Source of the DNA: a virus
Taxonomy: Duplodnaviria; Caudoviricetes
Reading direction: 5' to 3' (one strand)
IMG/VR virus record: IMGVR_UViG_3300024262_000034
Coordinates: 1-57,191 of that record
Length of the DNA stretch: 57,191 bases
A program made the position numbers and the translations under genes. Below are positions 32,785 to 54,233 of this stretch, one piece after another (positions within the stretch are counted from its first letter, which is position 1; each line of letters starts with the position of its first letter). The notes under the pieces are model-generated. The model had not been told where the DNA came from. It saw only the letters and a list, made by a program, of their open reading frames with translations, and did no database searches.

Positions 32785-32812
32785 AGTATATCACAAAAAA
32801 TCGAAAAGTCAA
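32785..32812 (-). promoter_or_regulatory. Promoter TTGACT-N16-TATACT
   Basis: Closely matches the capsid promoter at 56872-56899 (AGTATATCACAAAAA...GAAAAGTCAA). Confidence 0.7.
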
Positions 32813-32821
32813 ACTAATTAT

Positions 32822-34300
32822 TTATATTTTCTGTAACCATTCTCTCAACCTGTCTCCATTTAATTCAGCAGCAATATCGTACTTGTTCTTTAACGAGTCC
32901 ACAATGTGCTTGTCCTCTGTCCCTTGGGCCACCAGATCAATATAAAGAACCTTGTTGGTTTGCCCAATGCGGTGGGCACGGTCTTCGGACTGGAGCCGGT
33001 TTTTCAGGTTGAAATCATTGCTGTAATAAATGACCGTCCGGGCTTCAGTCAATGTATGCCCCTCGCCAAGCGTTGCCGGAGTCGCCACGATTGCCTGAAC
33101 AGAATCAGAAGTCTTAAATAGATGCTTGGCTTCACTTCTCTGCGTGACATCCATCGCCCCGTAGTATGTGACACATCGTTCTTGTAAAGCCTCTTTGATC
33201 TGTTCGATGTCTTGCCGAAACCTTGCCCACACAATAACCTTGTGTGAAGTTTCTTCCATGATCTCTTTCAGCAATTCAATCCTTGGGTTCTTGCCTGCAA
33301 AACGGTGTAAGGGAGCATCATCATCGACCGTATCCAGTGGGATGTACCCACAGGTAATTTGTTGTAGTCGCAACAGCATGACGATGGCCATGGTTGCCGT
33401 CACCAGACCATCCCCAATCTGGAGCATCATATCAGACTTCAAAGCGTCATACGCTCGTCTTTGATCGTTGGATAGCTCAAAGAAACGATAGGTGTACAGC
33501 TTAGGCGGTAAATCAATCTCATCAATATCTTCCTTCAGCACTCGTGAACGAAAGGGAGCCGTCATCCGTTCAATCGTCGCAATATCTTTGTAGTCCACAC
33601 AGTCCGGGTAATGCTGTTCTTTAATCGTATCATCCGGCATCTTAATGTGTCTTGTACCCCTACGCCAGACACCAAACCGGGTAGTGAAGGCTCCATAAGA
33701 TCGACACCCAACCTTCCACCAGAACTTTTGGTCAAGAAATCTATATTGCGAGTACAAATCAAACGGGCCTTGAGTAACCGGAGTTCCACCGGCAATTCTT
33801 CGATAGGGGGCAAGCTCACTGGAAGCTACAATCAGTTTGGTGCGTTCTGCGGATGGGGTCTTTATGTTGTGGCACTCATCCACAACATAATAGCACTTAC
33901 GACTCGTCAAGACTTCTTTAGCGAATGCCCTGCCGGTCTTGGTAATGAATGAATTAAATGACATAGCCACCACGATCAGGCCGGGCGTTCTGATTAGCTT
34001 AGAGAGCATTCTCTGATAACGCTTGCCTTTTGCCTTGGATGTCTGATAAAAGACAGCCTCATAATCTACCGGCATGTGTGTTGTAATTTCGTGCACCACC
34101 CAGTTCTCAGGAAGTCCGGGGGGGCAAACAACTAACAAGCAATCAATCTTGCCAGCAAGAAAAAGAAAAGCCGCTTGGTCAATCATTTCCTTTGACTTAC
34201 CAGTTCCCTGCTCCCACAGGATAGCACGAACCGAGTCCTGTCCGTGCTCTACAAATTCCTGCTCTTGATGCTTAAAAGGTTTGGTTTTAAACTCAAACAT
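32822..34300 (-). CDS. SNF2-family (SF2) helicase
   Basis: EQGTGKS, DECH, GTP, LLRLQQI, GHTL and QSEDRAHRIGQ motifs. Confidence 0.92.
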   Translation of the reverse strand: MFEFKTKPFKHQEQEFVEHGQDSVRAILWEQGTGKSKEMIDQAAFLFLAGKIDCLLVVCPPGLPENWVVHEITTHMPVDYEAVFYQTSKAKGKRYQRMLSKLIRTPGLIVVAMSFNSFITKTGRAFAKEVLTSRKCYYVVDECHNIKTPSAERTKLIVASSELAPYRRIAGGTPVTQGPFDLYSQYRFLDQKFWWKVGCRSYGAFTTRFGVWRRGTRHIKMPDDTIKEQHYPDCVDYKDIATIERMTAPFRSRVLKEDIDEIDLPPKLYTYRFFELSNDQRRAYDALKSDMMLQIGDGLVTATMAIVMLLRLQQITCGYIPLDTVDDDAPLHRFAGKNPRIELLKEIMEETSHKVIVWARFRQDIEQIKEALQERCVTYYGAMDVTQRSEAKHLFKTSDSVQAIVATPATLGEGHTLTEARTVIYYSNDFNLKNRLQSEDRAHRIGQTNKVLYIDLVAQGTEDKHIVDSLKNKYDIAAELNGDRLREWLQKI

Positions 34301-34901
34301 TTTCTACCAGATCATACATTTTAATTATAGATTCTAACTGCTCTTCAAGTAAGTCCAATTCTCCGGTGTTGGCGGTGATGGTGTGATCAAAACAAAGTTC
34401 ATGTCCATCGAGTGCACAGTCTGCCACATCTTTCGTTGGAGTCAAGTCCGGTCGTTCTACATGAATAGCAATACCACCAAGACTTTGAATAAGCCTTAAC
34501 TCATTCAAGAATCGAACATCAGAGATCAGGCTGGTAAAACCAAGCTCCCGATTAACGGCAATCTTCTCTCGCATGATTTCCAGCCAAGTATCTTCAAACA
34601 CATTCTCCCGAATTGCCTTAGTGCCTAGTTTGATTAAAAGCTCCCGGTAGGTCATGCCAATCTTAGGTAAGACTGTTTCACGATCTTCAGGAAGATCACC
34701 ACGATCTTTGTACCAGTCAGCAGAGTAAACTCCAGCCCACGAATACAGCGTATGGGCAATATGCTTTAACGGATCAGCAAAAGATAATATTCTGGCTGAT
34801 GAAGAACTACCATTCTCCCAAAGCCTGCGAGCCAAGTAGCTGCAAGCGTAGTCCTTGCCAGTACGCTTTTTAAATCCAAAACCAATTAAATCTACTACCA
34901 T
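34293..34901 (-). CDS. Deoxynucleoside monophosphate kinase
   Basis: GxKxTGKD, SFADPLK, RELLIKLGT and ISDVRFxNE motifs. Confidence 0.88.
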   Translation of the reverse strand: MVVDLIGFGFKKRTGKDYACSYLARRLWENGSSSSARILSFADPLKHIAHTLYSWAGVYSADWYKDRGDLPEDRETVLPKIGMTYRELLIKLGTKAIRENVFEDTWLEIMREKIAVNRELGFTSLISDVRFLNELRLIQSLGGIAIHVERPDLTPTKDVADCALDGHELCFDHTITANTGELDLLEEQLESIIKMYDLVENV

Positions 34902-35164
34902 TACTTCTGTTCCTTTAACATTTTTCTAAAATAAGCATTCTCTCTTCGGAGAGCTTCGTTATCAAACATAATATATTTAATCACAATGCGAATGTATTGA
35001 AGAGATTCAAACACCTTTTCAAAAAACGGCTTTTCTCTCTTTGGCAAAACAGTCTGCTTACCGACAAAGGTATCCAGCTTGTGTCGTTCAGTCGGAGATA
35101 AAGAATCAAACGTCTGGAGTATTTTCATAATTTCTTCATGCAACAGTGTACTGTTTTTATCCAC
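34901..35164 (-). CDS. Small coiled-coil protein resembling a Planctomycetota-conserved hypothetical protein
   Basis: ESLQYIRIVIKYIMFDNEALRRENAYFRKML compared with the recalled planctomycete consensus ESLDYLRLSIKYLVFDLEATRRENxYLRKML. Confidence 0.65.
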   Translation of the reverse strand: MDKNSTLLHEEIMKILQTFDSLSPTERHKLDTFVGKQTVLPKREKPFFEKVFESLQYIRIVIKYIMFDNEALRRENAYFRKMLKEQK

Positions 35165-36753
35165 TACTCCCCCCTCCACTTACCGTTCCAACAAGTCAAT
35201 AAAGTTCTTTGGCCATTTGGATAAATAATAATATGAGTGTGTGACCAACTGGATGGTCCATTATTATACCCCTGATCCATCGCACAGCTTGTTCCAGCCT
35301 GATACAGCCCTTCAATAATACAGGCTGAGTGACTATGCCCGATACAGAGCTTTCTGCCGATCTTATGTAGTGAAGCAGCCGAACCTCTGGAACCATTTGG
35401 CCCAAGGTGGCCGTGCCAGCCACACTCAATGCTGTCTTTGCAGATTGTGTAGGAGTCATCCACATCTAAGAACTTTATGTCTTCAGGACATTGCAGATGT
35501 TCCATGGCCCAACGGACAGGGTTGAATGAGTCACCCCGGTCCAGAGCTTCATAATAGGCCAGTTGAATCCGCAGGAACAGGAGTGCGTTCTTCGGATCGT
35601 CCCGGTAGTCACACCACTTCAACCACCGATTCAAAAAGTCATCATGGTTGCCGTAGCTGCAAATAATTTTGCCCCCGGATTCTTGAATGAATATTAGCAA
35701 AGTAATAAAATCTTTGAGTTCATCCTGAACCGAGTCCTGACAGTTTGCATAATTCTTGAATAATTCATGGGGGTCTTTCTGTTTATGTGGATTTATTGCA
35801 GCATTGTCAAGACCGTCATTAATAAACTGGTACTTTGGTTTAAGCGTTTTAGCAATACCATCGTCACCCCAATTAAGTTTTTCCATGTTGTCATCAATAT
35901 TTGCCGCATGGAGATCACCCCAAAAGATGGCTTCCACATCTTGATCTGTTCTTACCAGCTTGCCCCCTTGGAACAGGCAATTCAAATCCTGAATCTCCCC
36001 CCTCGGTCCAGAAGATATTTGTCGAACAAACCAATCGCCGCTTGCGTCAACCTCTACAAGCGTGGCGGCGTATTGGTGGTGGAATTCAGCCTTCAAACCT
36101 TCTTTTTTCTTAATGTAATTCCGTTGTGTTACCGTGCCCGTGGTGTAATTAAACTTGGTGTTCTGAAAACGACCGGATGCAACAGACTGCATAGACACCT
36201 TAACATGCGGAAAAATACCGGAGCGTCTTCGAGTGTATGTCTCCAAACCGGATAGTGGTCTGACAGCAGTAGGTAAAATATTCATTTCCCCACACCAGAC
36301 AAGGCCGGGGGCAATCTCCAGACTCTCATCAGAAACATAAATATTTAATTCTGGAGCGTACCATAAAGTATCTTGATGTTCCTCACTCCCCGGCTTAACG
36401 GATAGTTTACCAAACGCATTCTTGTTATAGGTGAATCGAGACACATGAACTTCAGCCTCATAATATACTGCCAAAGCCAATAAATTATTCCAAAATGGTT
36501 TATTTATTCGAGTATTGTTCTGAGCACAGGTTAGGATGTACCGTTTGACTCCAGATTCTGGAAGTGCCAACTGCTCAGAAGTCATGCTCTTTACGGAGCC
36601 ACCTGCAATTGGACCTTCAATCCCTTTCTTGCGAAGGTGGTGCTGCACAGTCTTCCGGTGTACCCCAAACCGCCGAGCCGTTTCCCGCACACAGGCTGTT
36701 TCTTGATAGACCCCAACCACTTCATCCGTATTAAGATTTTTATTTGCAGCCAA
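35164..36753 (-). CDS. N-terminal HTH plus calcineurin-like metallophosphoesterase, T5 A1-like putative DNase
   Basis: GDLH, GNHD, HGH and GHSH motifs. The AQNNT, ILPTAxRPLSG and YTTGTVTxxNY...AEFHH blocks are recalled from A1-like proteins. Confidence 0.7.
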   Translation of the reverse strand: MAANKNLNTDEVVGVYQETACVRETARRFGVHRKTVQHHLRKKGIEGPIAGGSVKSMTSEQLALPESGVKRYILTCAQNNTRINKPFWNNLLALAVYYEAEVHVSRFTYNKNAFGKLSVKPGSEEHQDTLWYAPELNIYVSDESLEIAPGLVWCGEMNILPTAVRPLSGLETYTRRRSGIFPHVKVSMQSVASGRFQNTKFNYTTGTVTQRNYIKKKEGLKAEFHHQYAATLVEVDASGDWFVRQISSGPRGEIQDLNCLFQGGKLVRTDQDVEAIFWGDLHAANIDDNMEKLNWGDDGIAKTLKPKYQFINDGLDNAAINPHKQKDPHELFKNYANCQDSVQDELKDFITLLIFIQESGGKIICSYGNHDDFLNRWLKWCDYRDDPKNALLFLRIQLAYYEALDRGDSFNPVRWAMEHLQCPEDIKFLDVDDSYTICKDSIECGWHGHLGPNGSRGSAASLHKIGRKLCIGHSHSACIIEGLYQAGTSCAMDQGYNNGPSSWSHTHIIIYPNGQRTLLTCWNGKWRGE

Positions 36754-36759
36754 AACAAA

Positions 36760-36996
36760 CTATCCTAAGAAGTATTTTTTGAGTCCAAGAGCAATCATAG
36801 CAAGTGCCCCTAAAGAAAGAGCACCAATAATGGTAAGAACACTCTTGCTTTTAATGCTTTCCGACATCAAGCGAAGATCACGGAGGTAGCTAAAATCTTT
36901 TTGCATATCCAAGGGATCATGAGGCTCAATGCCAAGAGATAACAAAGTCTCTTTTACTGTATCCATTACGACCTTTCGCAATTCTTTTTCATCCAT
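36760..36996 (-). CDS. Small membrane protein, holin-like
   Basis: C-terminal TM segment with a basic tail, located after the tail module. Confidence 0.5.
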   Translation of the reverse strand: MDEKELRKVVMDTVKETLLSLGIEPHDPLDMQKDFSYLRDLRLMSESIKSKSVLTIIGALSLGALAMIALGLKKYFLG

Positions 36997-37013
36997 GGTG
37001 TATCCTTCTTAGA

Positions 37014-37042
37014 ACTATACTCTATTCTCAGGTGGTTGTCAA
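37014..37042 (-). promoter_or_regulatory. Promoter TTGACA-N17-TATAGT
   Basis: Intergenic hexamers at 37037-37042 and 37014-37019. Confidence 0.6.
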
Positions 37043-37044
37043 GT

Positions 37045-51639: not shown

Positions 51640-51777
51640 TTATGCACCTATATCTTCAACAGTAGTTAAGACCACATCGTAATCTTCAATCTCTTCTAAA
51701 GTTACTTCCAGCCCATCAACAACCGCCTGTGTGGTTTGAAGCTGCGTAAACACAGGAAACATTCCTTGCAATGCCAT
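51640..51777 (-). CDS. Small acidic protein (45 aa)
   Basis: Hand-translated MALQGMFPVF..., with TAATG coupling. Confidence 0.45.
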   Translation of the reverse strand: MALQGMFPVFTQLQTTQAVVDGLEVTLEEIEDYDVVLTTVEDIGA

Positions 51778-52724
51778 TACACAACCGTCCTTGTATTTCC
51801 ATCCGCACTTACATTTAAAGTAAACGCCGGAGTAGAATCATCGTCCTCATACACCACAACAACACTGGGGCTTCCGGGAGTCACCACCACCCGGTTACTC
51901 AACGTCTTTCGGTTCTTTTCGACGGATGTCAATATAGTATCAACGATTCCATCAATCGTATCAACCTTACCATCCACAGTTGACAATGCCGAAGCAGTTG
52001 CGAGCGTTGCCAGTGTAGCGGGTAGGGTTGTTCCGGTATCCAGAAGTACGGCATCCACATTTGTACTAATCGTATCAACCTTACCATCCACAGTTGACAG
52101 TGCCGAAGCAGTTGCGAGCGTTGCCAGTGTAGCGGGTAGGGTTGTTCCGGTATCCTCAACAATCAACACTGTTTCTGCCTTCACTGCCGCAACGTCTGCT
52201 GAAACAGAAGCACCAGCAGGAGCACCTAACCGAGCGAAGTTGTCCCCAGTTTGTTTGGTGTTGCCCGTATAGGTAGTAACAGTTCCTATGGTTGAGGCTG
52301 ATTTATTGTAGCCGGTTCCATCATAATCATCCTCAAGATTATTTAAAGCAGTTGTCAACCCTTTAAGTTTAGAAACATCCACCCGACCAGAAGAATCTGC
52401 AATACCTACAGTTTCCACAATAAGATTCTGCATGATTGCATTCAAGGCCAGTTCCCGCTTGGTCAATAAGAATGGCTTATACCGATCCGAATCTACCAAG
52501 GTTGCACCACCATCAATCAAACCAACCAAATCTTCTCCAACAACATCCCAAGGGGCAGTGCCGAGTGTGACGGTGAACCTATACCAGCCGTTACCTAACT
52601 CAGTGAACGATGGCTTACTTGCCATCTTGTCTGTCTGGTTAGTGGCAGTCTCCAACGCAATGAAGACTGGTGTGAGGCCAGTCGCCGCCACGCCCGCATC
52701 AGAAAAATATTTAAAATAAAGCAT
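51777..52724 (-). CDS. Putative virion fibre or accessory protein with internal duplication
   Basis: TELGNGWY N-terminal domain and a Thr/Ala-rich repeat, within the structural operon. Confidence 0.6.
   Translation of the reverse strand: MLYFKYFSDAGVAATGLTPVFIALETATNQTDKMASKPSFTELGNGWYRFTVTLGTAPWDVVGEDLVGLIDGGATLVDSDRYKPFLLTKRELALNAIMQNLIVETVGIADSSGRVDVSKLKGLTTALNNLEDDYDGTGYNKSASTIGTVTTYTGNTKQTGDNFARLGAPAGASVSADVAAVKAETVLIVEDTGTTLPATLATLATASALSTVDGKVDTISTNVDAVLLDTGTTLPATLATLATASALSTVDGKVDTIDGIVDTILTSVEKNRKTLSNRVVVTPGSPSVVVVYEDDDSTPAFTLNVSADGNTRTVV
51954..52155. repeat. 88-bp intragenic direct repeat (114-bp period, 1 synonymous mismatch)
   Basis: 51954-52041 versus 52068-52155, encoding DTGTTLPATLATLATASALSTVDGKVDTI. 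Confidence 0.93.
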
Positions 52725-52733
52725 TATAATGTC

Positions 52734-54233
52734 CTATGTCGTAAACTGGTTGACCAGTGAGTTTTCACCAGATCGGGACGGAATCTCAATAGTTGGTGGT
52801 CCTAGCTGTGTCGCATTTCCGTGAATATCTGTTATCCCGGAACGCTTGATTTTAGTGTTGCGAATTCGTAAGTCTCCACCTGCCACGTTAGCCAGCCTTG
52901 GGTCATCCGTAACATTGTCCGTTGGGTGCGGAAAGACATTACTTATGGCTCCGGTGTCTATCGTCCCGTTTATCACTGAGTTTATGCTTCGCAAGGCTCC
53001 ACCACTCCCCTGTTCAACCTCACTCTGCGTATTATCAGAAATAATGCTGTTGATGAGATAGCCTTGATTGATCGTTCCACGCTTTTTCCAGCCGTCGAGA
53101 TTACCGGCAATAATGCCATTAACCCACATTCCACTTTGGTTGGTTGTGTCCACACCGTAGAGTCCATTGTTATAGGAAGCACAGCCAAAGGCAGAAGCCC
53201 CTCGCATAGAAAATCCAACGTGGGTGTTTCCGTATGCCCGACAGTTGACAAAACCAATATGCCCGTACTGTTGATTCGCTACGCTTGTTACGGTCATACC
53301 AGAAGAATCACCGTCATAAAAATCGCAATCAATGAATAAGGCTTGAATTTCGCTACCACTTGCCTGATAGTACCGCATAGCGTTAATGCACTTACCACCA
53401 CCGGCCCCATCGCCGCCATCATAAAAATCACACTTATAAAACAACAGTCCTCGGATGGCATAAGTGTTTGAGTATATTTGCAGATTATAGGTATAACTGG
53501 CTCCATCCCCCACCCCTCGAACATGGAAGTTCTCAAACTGGGTGTTATACATATTTGCAACAGCCCCAGTCCCTATGTATAGCCCATGACCAGCACCCAC
53601 GGGATTGTTGCCATTGTAGTTATAAAGAACAGGTCCATCATCCTCCGGCGTTGTCTGAAATCCCTTTATTCGCAAGTACGCATCGGTAGCTTCCGAGCCA
53701 CCACGGGTCCATGCTATCGTTGCTGATCGGTTGCTGTCTCCCTTGTTGTCGTATAGTGTTACGTCCTGATAACCAGCATCAACCTCATCATGTGCCGTCT
53801 GAATATCATTAAACGCCCCACCAATCGTAACATTGACGGTGGGGACCGAAGTGGTGTAGCCTATAAGGATGTCAATATAATTGCCACTGGCATCGACTGC
53901 GGTAACTTCGTAATAATCATCTGGATAGGTGGCAGAAAAATCAAAATACCCCACCATACCAACTTCAGTGTTTGTGAATGCTCCACTCTTGGTAATACGG
54001 AGTTTCCCACTGCCGTTATTGGAGATCGCTGCTGTCGTAGCACTGTCGATTGCACCCCCATTCGTGCCAATCAATGCAGCCATCGCTGCCGCTTCCCCGA
54101 CCGAAATTACTTTAGCATCCCACCATTCTTTAGTGCAACCTCCGGGGTTGGCTAGACCGGCCTTAGTGCCTGTGCCACCAACAAAGAACACACTGGATTT
54201 ACCATCAACAACATCAAAAATATCATACGACAT
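52734..54233 (-). CDS. Right-handed beta-helix (pectin-lyase-like) spike protein
   Basis: Repeated FxxCxxYxxxxxG / NxIIxxN turns and C-terminal DPxLxNxxxGDLR. Confidence 0.7.
   Translation of the reverse strand: MSYDIFDVVDGKSSVFFVGGTGTKAGLANPGGCTKEWWDAKVISVGEAAAMAALIGTNGGAIDSATTAAISNNGSGKLRITKSGAFTNTEVGMVGYFDFSATYPDDYYEVTAVDASGNYIDILIGYTTSVPTVNVTIGGAFNDIQTAHDEVDAGYQDVTLYDNKGDSNRSATIAWTRGGSEATDAYLRIKGFQTTPEDDGPVLYNYNGNNPVGAGHGLYIGTGAVANMYNTQFENFHVRGVGDGASYTYNLQIYSNTYAIRGLLFYKCDFYDGGDGAGGGKCINAMRYYQASGSEIQALFIDCDFYDGDSSGMTVTSVANQQYGHIGFVNCRAYGNTHVGFSMRGASAFGCASYNNGLYGVDTTNQSGMWVNGIIAGNLDGWKKRGTINQGYLINSIISDNTQSEVEQGSGGALRSINSVINGTIDTGAISNVFPHPTDNVTDDPRLANVAGGDLRIRNTKIKRSGITDIHGNATQLGPPTIEIPSRSGENSLVNQFTT

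What the first reader, a model, noticed from the sequence alone, without database searches (positions are those of the whole stretch)
34901..35164. Phage copy of a Planctomycetota-conserved small protein: host clue and possible mimic
Seen: ...SLSPTERHKL...ESLQYIRIVIKYIMFDNEALRRENAYFRKML. From recall, this matches a ~90-aa coiled-coil protein conserved in planctomycetes (...LPxxERxKL...ESLDYLRLSIKYLVFDLEATRRENxYLRKML) whose function is unknown. Inference: the host is a planctomycete, a phylum with very few described phages. The phage may use a diverged copy to hijack or poison a phylum-specific process such as FtsZ-independent division or regulation.
Basis: partly seen in the sequence, partly recalled or inferred. 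Interest (0 to 1): 0.78.

Follow-up and report, generated by a model that had tools for sequence, protein, structure and literature searches.

The report
Phage copy of planctomycete small protein
A tailed phage carries an unusually altered copy of a tiny, unstudied helical protein otherwise found in Planctomycetota bacteria and some of their likely phages, which points to the phage's host and to an unknown conserved cell function.

Summary
Window 34901-35164 (minus strand) is an intact 87-aa gene. Its start overlaps the stop of a T5-A1-like gene by one base, and its stop overlaps the start of a dNMP kinase gene by one base.

It belongs to an undescribed small-protein family: a short helix, then a long heptad-patterned helix with the core motif K-Y-x-x-F-D-L-E-x-T-R-x-E. 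A profile built only from cellular members scores it 68.5 bits; the best of 2000 shuffles scores 10.7.

All 80 best genome loci lie in Planctomycetota. The family occurs in 103 of 121 genomes of one class and 65 of 101 of a second. It has no Pfam or NCBIfam model, no solved relative, and no paper containing the motif.

It also occurs on 22 IMG/VR loci. Of 12 examined, 8 have phage-type neighbours, mostly replication or recombination genes.

This copy keeps the exposed invariant residues but changes three buried ones (L69N, T72L, L79F). T72 is invariant in the other 108 sequences.

A planctomycete host is likely (about 0.7) but rests on this gene alone. A decoy or competitor role is inference; a role in cell division has no support.

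The parts
34901..35164 (-). 87-aa gene (GTG start, TAA stop): a diverged member of the planctomycete small helical protein family
   Evidence: 68.5 bits against a cellular-only profile. AlphaFold2 model: helices at 3-20, 24-35 and 45-86, mean pLDDT 82.8.
34937..34978 (-). Codons K63-N76, the family's core motif. In this phage it reads K-Y-I-M-F-D-N-E-A-L-R-R-E-N, so L69 is N and T72 is L.
   Evidence: Read. Column tallies.
34907..35032 (-). Long C-terminal helix (residues 45-86) with a heptad pattern
   Evidence: pLDDT 85-98; mean hydropathy +2.07 at a/d positions and -1.76 elsewhere.
35164..36753 (-). T5-A1-like 'DNA transfer protein' with an N-terminal HTH, immediately upstream. Its TAG stop overlaps the small gene's GTG by one base.
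   Evidence: phrog_1745, E 9.7e-165. Weak HTH hits. Matches in 1134 phage records, all below 60% identity.
34293..34901 (-). dNMP kinase. Its ATG overlaps the small gene's TAA by one base.
   Evidence: phrog_139, E 1.3e-35. PF21448, E 3.5e-8.
32822..34300 (-). SNF2-type helicase, the next gene downstream
   Evidence: phrog_62, E 1.4e-103. PF00176 and PF00271.
37014..37042 (-). Promoter-like site (TTGACA, 17 nt, TATAGT; 11 of 12) in the gap between the tail gene and the A1-like gene. It may be the start of the transcription unit.
   Evidence: This is a consensus match only; 16 sites were found in the region against 13.4 expected from shuffles.

Best explanation
SHOWN. The ORF is a real phage gene encoding an 87-aa all-helical protein. 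It is a diverged homologue (about 35-40% identity) of an undescribed small-protein family. The family is common in two classes of Planctomycetota and sits among housekeeping genes there. It has been picked up several times by phages, where it usually lies among replication, recombination or repair genes. In this siphovirus-type phage it lies, with a dNMP kinase gene, in a variable slot between an A1-like gene and an SNF2 helicase gene, with one-base overlaps at both ends.

INFERRED, host. The host is most likely a member of Planctomycetota, of the class that holds subfamily A. Most record titles name that class as Phycisphaerae.

INFERRED, mechanism. The long C-terminal helix is an oligomerising coiled coil. 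Its exposed, invariant face (K63, Y64, F67, D68, E70, R73, R74, E75) is the binding surface for a conserved cellular partner. The phage copy keeps that face but has changed three buried a/d residues (L69N, T72L, L79F), and its long helix is broken by a proline loop. It would therefore assemble on its own terms while still engaging the partner. That makes it a decoy or competitor for the host protein's partner, or a phage-controlled substitute for the host protein, made together with the phage's DNA-metabolism genes.
For: Gene and homology.

No known family. No paper contains the motif.

Taxonomy:
Of the best 80, 79 are titled as planctomycete lineages.
- The odd one out (G003) shares the phylum and class samples of G001.
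- Prevalence is 103/121, 86/101 (same class reached from another centre) and 65/101 in a second class.
- In the atlas search the nearest bacterial clusters have Planctomycetota as commonest phylum, and the nearest cluster is 61% viral.

The cellular gene is chromosomal. Its neighbours are Memo-like, PurM, ClpP, thioredoxin and flavoprotein genes, and the tree follows the lineages named in the titles.

Repeated capture by phages:
- 22 viral loci. The viral label needs at least 9 changes on the tree.
- 8 of 12 loci examined have phage-type neighbours: a UvsX-like recombinase and a Holliday-junction resolvase, DnaB, SNF2 helicases, exonucleases, an SbcC-like protein, a tail fibre and a terminase.

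Accessory slot: 0 of 43 A1-like relative loci have a family member within 4 kb. The gap between A1 and SNF2 is 56 nt, 327 nt, 1.9 kb or 2.4 kb in relatives.

Rewired core:
- The heptad register is clear, and 3 of the 4 departures from >=90%-conserved residues are at a/d positions.
- T72 is T in 108 of 108 other sequences and L69 is L in 107 of 108. The pattern-free set A1 agrees: T72 in 39 of 39 and L69 in 97%.

Oligomerisation: the cellular homologue is modelled as one 66-residue helix at pLDDT 92-99. In the phage copy that helix is broken at residues 36-44.
Against: The host call has no independent support. No tRNA was found. No A1-like relative was found in 301 genomes of the class. No DNA match was found in five low-GC genomes that carry the family. 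The closest isolated phages by the A1-like protein infect cyanobacteria and alphaproteobacteria.

Restriction to the phylum was tested only through the best 80 of at least 499 loci, found with a pattern (FDLEATRRE) taken from the family itself. No outgroup phylum could be searched.

The 80 genome rows and the viral rows were retrieved with patterns covering columns 63-79, so their invariance there is partly by construction.

Counting L58I as unchanged, the core-versus-surface contrast is 3 of 5 against 1 of 11. By my own hand calculation this gives a one-sided hypergeometric p of about 0.06, which is suggestive only.

The partner, the oligomeric state and the function of the family are all unknown. 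There is no expression data. The long branch (1.59 against a median of 0.13) could also reflect relaxed constraint.
Confidence: 0.55

Rival explanations
1. Plain extra copy. The phage simply supplies a working equivalent of the host protein, as with an auxiliary gene, with no antagonism or altered specificity.
For: Most other viral copies keep the motif intact: L69 in 19 of 20 viral rows and T72 in 20 of 20. Some (L128, L130, L131) are nested on short branches among cellular copies. The exposed invariant residues are kept here too.
Against: This copy alone replaces T72, which is invariant in the other 108 sequences. It also replaces L69 and L79, carries a proline loop in the long helix, and sits on a branch about 12 times the median length.
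Confidence: 0.2
2. Poison subunit. The phage protein forms mixed oligomers with the host homologue and inactivates it.
For: Complex prediction of the phage copy with a cellular homologue from L108 gave weak support. The score was 0.36 against a best of 3 controls of 0.01. The runs agreed in at least 92% of contacts and the partner pLDDT was at least 63. The tool's calibration: the mark was reached by 58 of 80 solved complexes and 2 of 110 mismatched pairs, but at 0.60 or under by only 7 of those 80 and by both mismatches that passed. My own alignments were used, so these counts hold only roughly.
Against: The two chains are homologues, so a pass may only reflect their likeness (a caveat stated). 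The changes are in the buried a/d positions: a polar Asn where the host has Leu, and a Leu where the host has Thr. By general coiled-coil principles (established knowledge, not tested here) such changes tend to disfavour mixed pairing.
Confidence: 0.12
3. The gene was passed between phages and now sits in a phage whose host is not a planctomycete, so it is not a host marker here.
For: The copy is very diverged and unresolved within subfamily A. No independent host evidence was found. The relatives found through the A1-like protein lack the gene, and isolated relatives infect other phyla.
Against: All cellular homologues found lie in Planctomycetota. A protein that keeps the family's exposed invariant face would have no evident target in a cell that lacks the family (inference). 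The window's GC of 43% lies within the range of genome loci that carry the family, 41-71%.
Confidence: 0.25
4. A decaying passenger gene with no function.
For: The branch is long and otherwise invariant residues are lost.
Against: The frame is intact, with a ribosome-binding site and one-base overlaps to both neighbours. Nine highly conserved exposed residues are retained. The model is confident. The same protein is on record from a second contig of 64,450 bases, which may be the same sample.
Confidence: 0.08
5. A dedicated partner of the A1-like protein, analogous to T5 A2, which acts together with A1.
For: It lies immediately downstream of the A1-like gene with overlapping stop and start. 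In T5, A1 and A2 are both needed for second-step transfer (abstract of 10.1101/866236, seen in the listing).
Against: 0 of 43 A1-like loci have a family member within 4 kb, and in L034 the A1-like gene is followed directly by SNF2. The family is a chromosomal gene of bacteria in which no A1-like gene was found (0 of 301).
Confidence: 0.05

Closest known systems
The unnamed planctomycete small-protein family itself. Sources label members 'hypothetical protein', 'chromosome segregation ATPase' or 'uncharacterized membrane protein'.
   Same: Length, the helix-plus-long-helix plan, and the core residues K63, Y64, F67, D68, E70, R73, R74, E75 and N76. It scores 68.5 bits against a cellular-only profile.
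   Different: L69N, T72L, L79F and D56Q. A proline loop interrupts the long helix. The gene is carried by a phage, and its branch is about 12 times the median length.
YabA (PF06156 / NF009644), a replication-initiation control protein with an N-terminal leucine-zipper tetramerisation helix
   Same: A small coiled-coil protein. There are weak matches to the coiled-coil part of the profile (positions 18-55). In phages the family sits near replication genes.
   Different: The scores are far below the cut-off: 14.6 bits against 30 for the phage protein, and only 4 of 40 members match at E<=0.01. The matches do not cover the C-terminal part of the YabA profile. This is most likely generic coiled-coil likeness.
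Eukaryote-type leucine zippers (PF10473 CENP-F_leu_zip, PF01166 TSC22)
   Same: Heptad-patterned helix with an Asn at an 'a' position. Weak matches in 13 and 9 of 40 members.
   Different: All matches are below the curated cut-offs and none is to the phage protein itself. There is no evidence of DNA binding.
Phage-borne copies of small host proteins, such as ribosomal protein bS21 in phages (PMC9723584, abstract seen in the listing) and WhiB-like genes in actinophages (recalled, not checked here)
   Same: A small host-type protein is carried by phages. It can serve as a host marker and is presumed to redirect a host process.
   Different: Here the host family is entirely uncharacterised, and this copy has changed residues that are otherwise invariant.
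T5 A2 (partner of A1)
   Same: A small gene directly after an A1-type gene (abstract of 10.1101/866236 in the listing).
   Different: It does not co-occur with A1-like genes elsewhere (0 of 43). No sequence comparison with A2 was made.

Membership tests
Planctomycete small helical protein family (undescribed; defined here by alignments A1, A2 and A3) | Significant match to a profile built from cellular members only | tested here: met
   68.5 bits, E 3.6e-20. It is the only hit among 1000 six-frame segments of the window, and the best of 2000 shuffles scored 10.7 bits.
Planctomycete small helical protein family | Size of about 85-100 aa, with a short N-terminal helix followed by one long C-terminal helix | tested here: inconclusive
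   87 aa and all-helical. However, the long helix, continuous over residues 22-87 in the cellular model, is broken at residues 36-44 in the phage model.
Planctomycete small helical protein family | Core motif K-Y-x-x-F-D-L-E-x-T-R-(R/K)-E on the long helix | tested here: inconclusive
   K, Y, F, D, E, R, R and E are present, but L69 is N and T72 is L. T72 is otherwise invariant (108 of 108).
Planctomycete small helical protein family | Encoded in Planctomycetota chromosomes among housekeeping genes | tested here: not met
   This copy is on a virus record. Another 22 viral loci also carry members.
YabA (PF06156) | Score above the Pfam gathering threshold (30 bits) | tested here: not met
   14.6 bits, E 0.051, covering only profile positions 18-55 of 103.
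YabA (PF06156) | C-terminal zinc-binding domain (a feature recalled from the literature) | not tested
   The protein ends with the coiled-coil helix, and no match covers the C-terminal part of the profile. Cysteine and histidine ligands were not examined as such.
T5 A2-type partner of A1 | Co-occurrence with A1-type genes | tested here: not met
   0 of 43 A1-like viral loci have a family member within 4 kb.
T5 A2-type partner of A1 | Sequence similarity to A2 | not tested
   No A2 sequence was fetched. tblastn of the small protein against 50,697 phage records, a collection of GenBank phage genomes, found nothing at E<=1.

The most novel reading that the evidence does not exclude
The family is a core, Planctomycetota-specific regulator of DNA replication, segregation or the cell cycle that acts through the invariant exposed face of a coiled coil. 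Phages of this phylum repeatedly capture it. This phage has evolved an 'orthogonal' version, with the same target-binding face but a re-keyed core, that takes the host protein's partner without mixing with the host protein. The gene would then be both a general marker for finding planctomycete phages and an entry point to an unknown piece of planctomycete cell biology.
Probability: 0.2. Interest if true: 0.75.

Novelty: new member of a known kind. Interest (0 to 1): 0.5.

Why it matters
Few phages are described for Planctomycetota. A 2025 review of the phylum mentions phages once, and only as phage genes on plasmids (passage in PMC12673574). Other reports are metagenomic predictions (passages of 10.1101/2021.09.01.458585) or one chronic phage of a Phycisphaerae isolate (passages of PMC10945688).

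A small gene tied to the phylum and carried by many viral contigs (22 loci; a 122-member, mostly viral cluster) would be a cheap marker for finding such phages.

The family is near-core in one class and has an unusually invariant surface, yet it has no curated model, no solved structure and no paper. The phage copies, and this rewired one in particular, offer natural variants for working out what it binds. If the phylum restriction or the host call fails, what remains is an ordinary diverged accessory gene.

Tried and rejected
Searches that found nothing useful:
- The word-indexed protein search found only the window's own protein, 1 of 4 candidates.
- tblastn against 50,697 phage records found nothing at E<=1.
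- PDB by sequence: the single protein gave nothing below E 0.077. The family profile matched only designed helical proteins, best E 8.8e-4.
- Foldseek found 0 matches at E<=0.001 in both PDB and BFVD.
- Pfam, PHROGs and NCBIfam gave only sub-threshold coiled-coil matches.
- A full-text search for three motif strings found 0 papers.

Genomic context of cellular copies:
- No neighbour is shared across the 80 subfamily-A loci. The commonest is a Memo-like gene, in 16 loci.
- My first greedy ORF caller was misled by antisense ORFs in GC-rich DNA, so I replaced it.
- Subfamily B has a conserved divergent neighbour of unknown function, not shared with subfamily A.

Independent host evidence, all blank and uninformative either way:
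- No tRNA genes.
- The A1-like protein was not found in 301 genomes of the class.
- The window's DNA, in three pieces, found nothing in five low-GC genomes that carry the family.

Other points:
- Sequencing runs: one DNA holder, which may be the source sample. No RNA holder is listed.
- The phylum sample gave 39 of 301 with either profile. I do not read this as species-weighted prevalence, because the two class samples give 85% and 64%, and the way the 'evenly drawn' phylum sample is stratified is not stated.
A run with a higher cap left the same genomes negative.
- No outgroup phylum could be searched, because no handle outside the phylum was available.
- Supplementary tables of the papers cited (host predictions of metagenomic phages) were not seen and may list related phages.

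Full report
WHAT IS THERE

The window is an IMG/VR virus record of 57,191 bases, classed linear and estimated 89% complete. Its long ORFs are almost all on the minus strand. They encode a siphovirus-type tail set: tape measure, tail assembly proteins, a large tail protein and a neck protein. They also encode a replication and nucleotide-metabolism set: primase, DNA polymerase, Dda-like and SNF2 helicases, ribonucleotide reductase, thymidylate synthase, RNA ligase and dNMP kinase.

The finding's peptide is the minus-strand translation of 34904-35164. Three details can be read directly:
- The GTG at 35164 shares a base with the TAG stop of the upstream 529-aa gene.
- A GGAGG-type ribosome-binding site precedes it.
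- The TAA stop overlaps the ATG of the downstream dNMP kinase gene by one base.

The family alignment needs residues upstream of the first internal ATG, so the 87-aa form (or the 92-aa form) is the gene. A near-consensus promoter-like site lies in the gap upstream of the 529-aa gene. That is a consensus match only.

IS THE FAMILY REAL?

The word-indexed search found only the protein itself, and tblastn against 50,697 phage records found nothing. An exhaustive phmmer run over 1.84 billion representatives found 151 proteins at E<=1e-3. Most are 85-150 aa and align over nearly the whole length at 30-40% identity.

In an alignment of the phage protein with 39 of these, K63, Y64, F67, D68, E70, R74 and E75 are invariant. 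A profile built only from 80 cellular sequences scores the phage ORF at 68.5 bits, against 10.7 for the best of 2000 shuffles. Homology is therefore secure.

No curated family covers it. Pfam and NCBIfam give only sub-threshold coiled-coil likenesses: CENP-F zipper in 13 of 40 members, TSC22 in 9 and YabA in 4. No solved structure or BFVD model is related. No paper in the library contains the motif.

WHERE DOES THE FAMILY OCCUR?

Of the 80 best, 79 are titled as planctomycete lineages. By NCBI lineage they are 56 Phycisphaerae, 17 Planctomycetia, 6 unclassified Planctomycetota and 1 'Actinomycetes'.

The 'Actinomycetes' MAG (G003), a 'Planctomycetaceae' MAG (G002) and a 'Pirellulales' MAG (G005) all draw the same class sample as the Phycisphaerales MAG G001. 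So the strong matches belong to one GTDB class.

Prevalence by sample:
- In that class, 103 of 121 genomes have the family, some in two or three copies. From another centre the count is 86 of 101.
- Weaker matches in larger genomes turned out to be a second subfamily with the same core and a run of five arginines. It occurs in 65 of 101 genomes of a different class sample.
- An evenly drawn phylum sample gave 39 of 301 with either profile. The family is therefore common in two classes but not found in many other lineages sampled.

The atlas search agrees independently. The nearest clusters are one mostly viral cluster (122 members) and two bacterial clusters in which Planctomycetota is the commonest phylum.

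Limits: the genome scan used a pattern taken from the family, only the best 80 loci were shown, and I could not search an outgroup phylum.

CELLULAR CONTEXT

The 80 subfamily-A loci share no universal neighbour. The recurrent neighbours are housekeeping genes: a Memo-like gene upstream in 16 loci, PurM in 9, DUF3553 in 9 and ClpP downstream in 9, plus thioredoxin and a flavoprotein. The tree groups the sequences by the lineages in the record titles. This is a vertically inherited chromosomal gene, not a prophage gene.

All 10 subfamily-B loci examined have a divergently transcribed protein of about 1000 aa with an N-terminal hydrophobic segment and no Pfam or PDB match.

PHAGE COPIES

IMG/VR holds 22 loci with family members, at GC 28-51%. 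Of 12 loci whose neighbours I scanned:
- 8 have phage-type genes nearby: UvsX-like recombinase and Holliday-junction resolvase flanking the gene in L130; an SNF2 helicase in L133; DnaB and an SNF2 helicase in L136; a methyltransferase and an exonuclease in L142; an SbcD-like exonuclease in L139; an SbcC-like protein in L134; a tail fibre in L140; a weak terminase match in L146.
- L131 lies next to an 836-aa ATP-dependent protease and looks cellular.
- L127, L137 and L147 stayed unresolved.

So in six loci, and in the window, the gene sits within a replication, recombination or repair module.

On the tree (quick method, 88 columns, many forks unresolved), the viral label needs at least 9 changes. 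A few viral copies nest on short branches in a low-GC cellular clade, while most, including the window's, sit on long branches.

THIS PHAGE'S COPY IS AN INSERTION

None of the 43 IMG/VR loci found through the A1-like protein has a family member within 4 kb. The module 'tail protein, A1-like, SNF2 helicase, two conserved ORFs' recurs in several of these loci. The A1-to-SNF2 gap is 56 nt in L034, 327 nt in L010, 1.9 kb in L008 and 2.4 kb in L005. So the small gene and the kinase occupy a variable accessory slot. This also argues against an obligate A1 partner of the T5 A2 kind.

STRUCTURE AND THE UNUSUAL SUBSTITUTIONS

The cellular homologue from L108 is modelled as a short helix (3-19) and one 66-residue helix (22-87) at pLDDT 92-99. 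A helix of that length is unlikely to stand alone (inference). The phage protein has helices at 3-20, 24-35 and 45-86, with a proline-containing loop between the last two.

The last helix has a clean heptad pattern: mean hydropathy is +2.07 at a/d positions and -1.76 elsewhere. The family's invariant residues are mostly on the exposed positions (K63 b, Y64 c, F67 f, D68 g, E70 b, R73 e, R74 f, E75 g), and the phage keeps all of them. Its four departures from residues that are >=90% conserved are D56Q (b), L69N (a), T72L (d) and L79F (d).

Across the other 108 sequences, T72 is always T, L69 is L in 107 and L79 is L in 104. The 80 genome rows and the viral rows were found with patterns covering this motif, so they are biased for these columns. 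The pattern-free phmmer set (39 of 39 T; 97% L) and subfamily B (8 of 8 for both) say the same. The only other copy with N at position 69 is a second, very diverged copy on L147 and L148.

MECHANISM

Shown: homology, phage carriage, the accessory position with overlapping stops and starts, and a retained exposed face with altered buried positions.

Inferred: the exposed invariant face binds a conserved cellular partner, and the buried face sets self-association. The phage version would still reach the partner but assemble on its own terms, acting as a decoy or a phage-controlled substitute.

A heterodimer prediction with a cellular homologue gave weak support only. The score was 0.36 against a best control of 0.01; the runs agreed in at least 92% of contacts; the partner pLDDT was at least 63. 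In the tool's calibration, scores at 0.60 or under were reached by 7 of 80 solved complexes and by both mismatched pairs that passed. The chains are homologues and my own alignments were used. I do not lean on this result.

The phage contexts point, loosely, to DNA transactions.

HOST

The gene is the only host clue. The phylum restriction, the repeated capture by phages and the retained binding face make a planctomycete host likely, of the subfamily-A class (support 100 for the A/B split). I put this at about 0.7.

No independent evidence was obtained. The A1-like protein's closest isolated relatives infect cyanobacteria and alphaproteobacteria at under 50% identity. The window's GC of 43% falls within the range of loci that carry the family, 41-71%.

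COMPARISON AND VERDICT

This is a phage-borne, diverged copy of a host-lineage small protein. That is a known kind of thing, but the family is undescribed and this copy changes otherwise invariant residues. I rate it a new member of a known kind, of moderate interest: a candidate marker for planctomycete phages and a lead into an unstudied, near-core small protein.

Noticed in passing
L157-L166 (G-handle regions), e.g. L162:532-3543 minus strand: All 10 subfamily-B loci have a conserved, divergently transcribed protein of about 1000 aa just upstream of the small gene. It has an N-terminal hydrophobic segment and no Pfam or PDB match. It may be a functional partner, or merely conserved synteny.
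   Followed up: partly
L147 and L148, 4899-5153 and 9444-9656: These two viral contigs carry two family copies about 4.3 kb apart. The second copy is very diverged and is the only other sequence with Asn at the position of the window's N69.
   Followed up: partly
L057 (G003), L085 (G002), L071 (G005): MAGs titled 'Actinomycetes', 'Planctomycetaceae' and 'Pirellulales' draw the same GTDB class sample as a Phycisphaerales MAG, so their record titles are unreliable at class level.
   Followed up: yes
window 36754-37044 and relatives L005, L008, L010, L034: The module 'tail protein, A1-like, SNF2 helicase, two conserved ORFs' (phrog_2378 and phrog_2402 types) recurs in several IMG/VR contigs. The gap between A1 and SNF2 ranges from 56 nt to 2.4 kb, so it behaves as an accessory-gene slot.
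   Followed up: partly
window 51777-52724 and 52734-54233 (minus strand): Two large ORFs (315 and 499 aa) in the structural region have no PHROG match at E<=1e-5. By position they may be head proteins of a poorly sampled lineage.
   Followed up: no
P0003: A 3484-aa protein scored E 4e-14 against the 87-aa query but with no matched stretch listed. This is probably a repetitive coiled-coil protein scoring by composition.
   Followed up: no
window 32800-36800: The only public run holding this stretch (all sampled words; possibly the source sample) is labelled a subsurface metagenome.
   Followed up: no
L131, 5735-8245: This IMG/VR 'viral' contig has an 836-aa ATP-dependent protease (889 bits to phrog_4871) next to a family copy that is nearly identical in tree position to cellular ones. 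It may be a cellular fragment misfiled as viral.
   Followed up: partly
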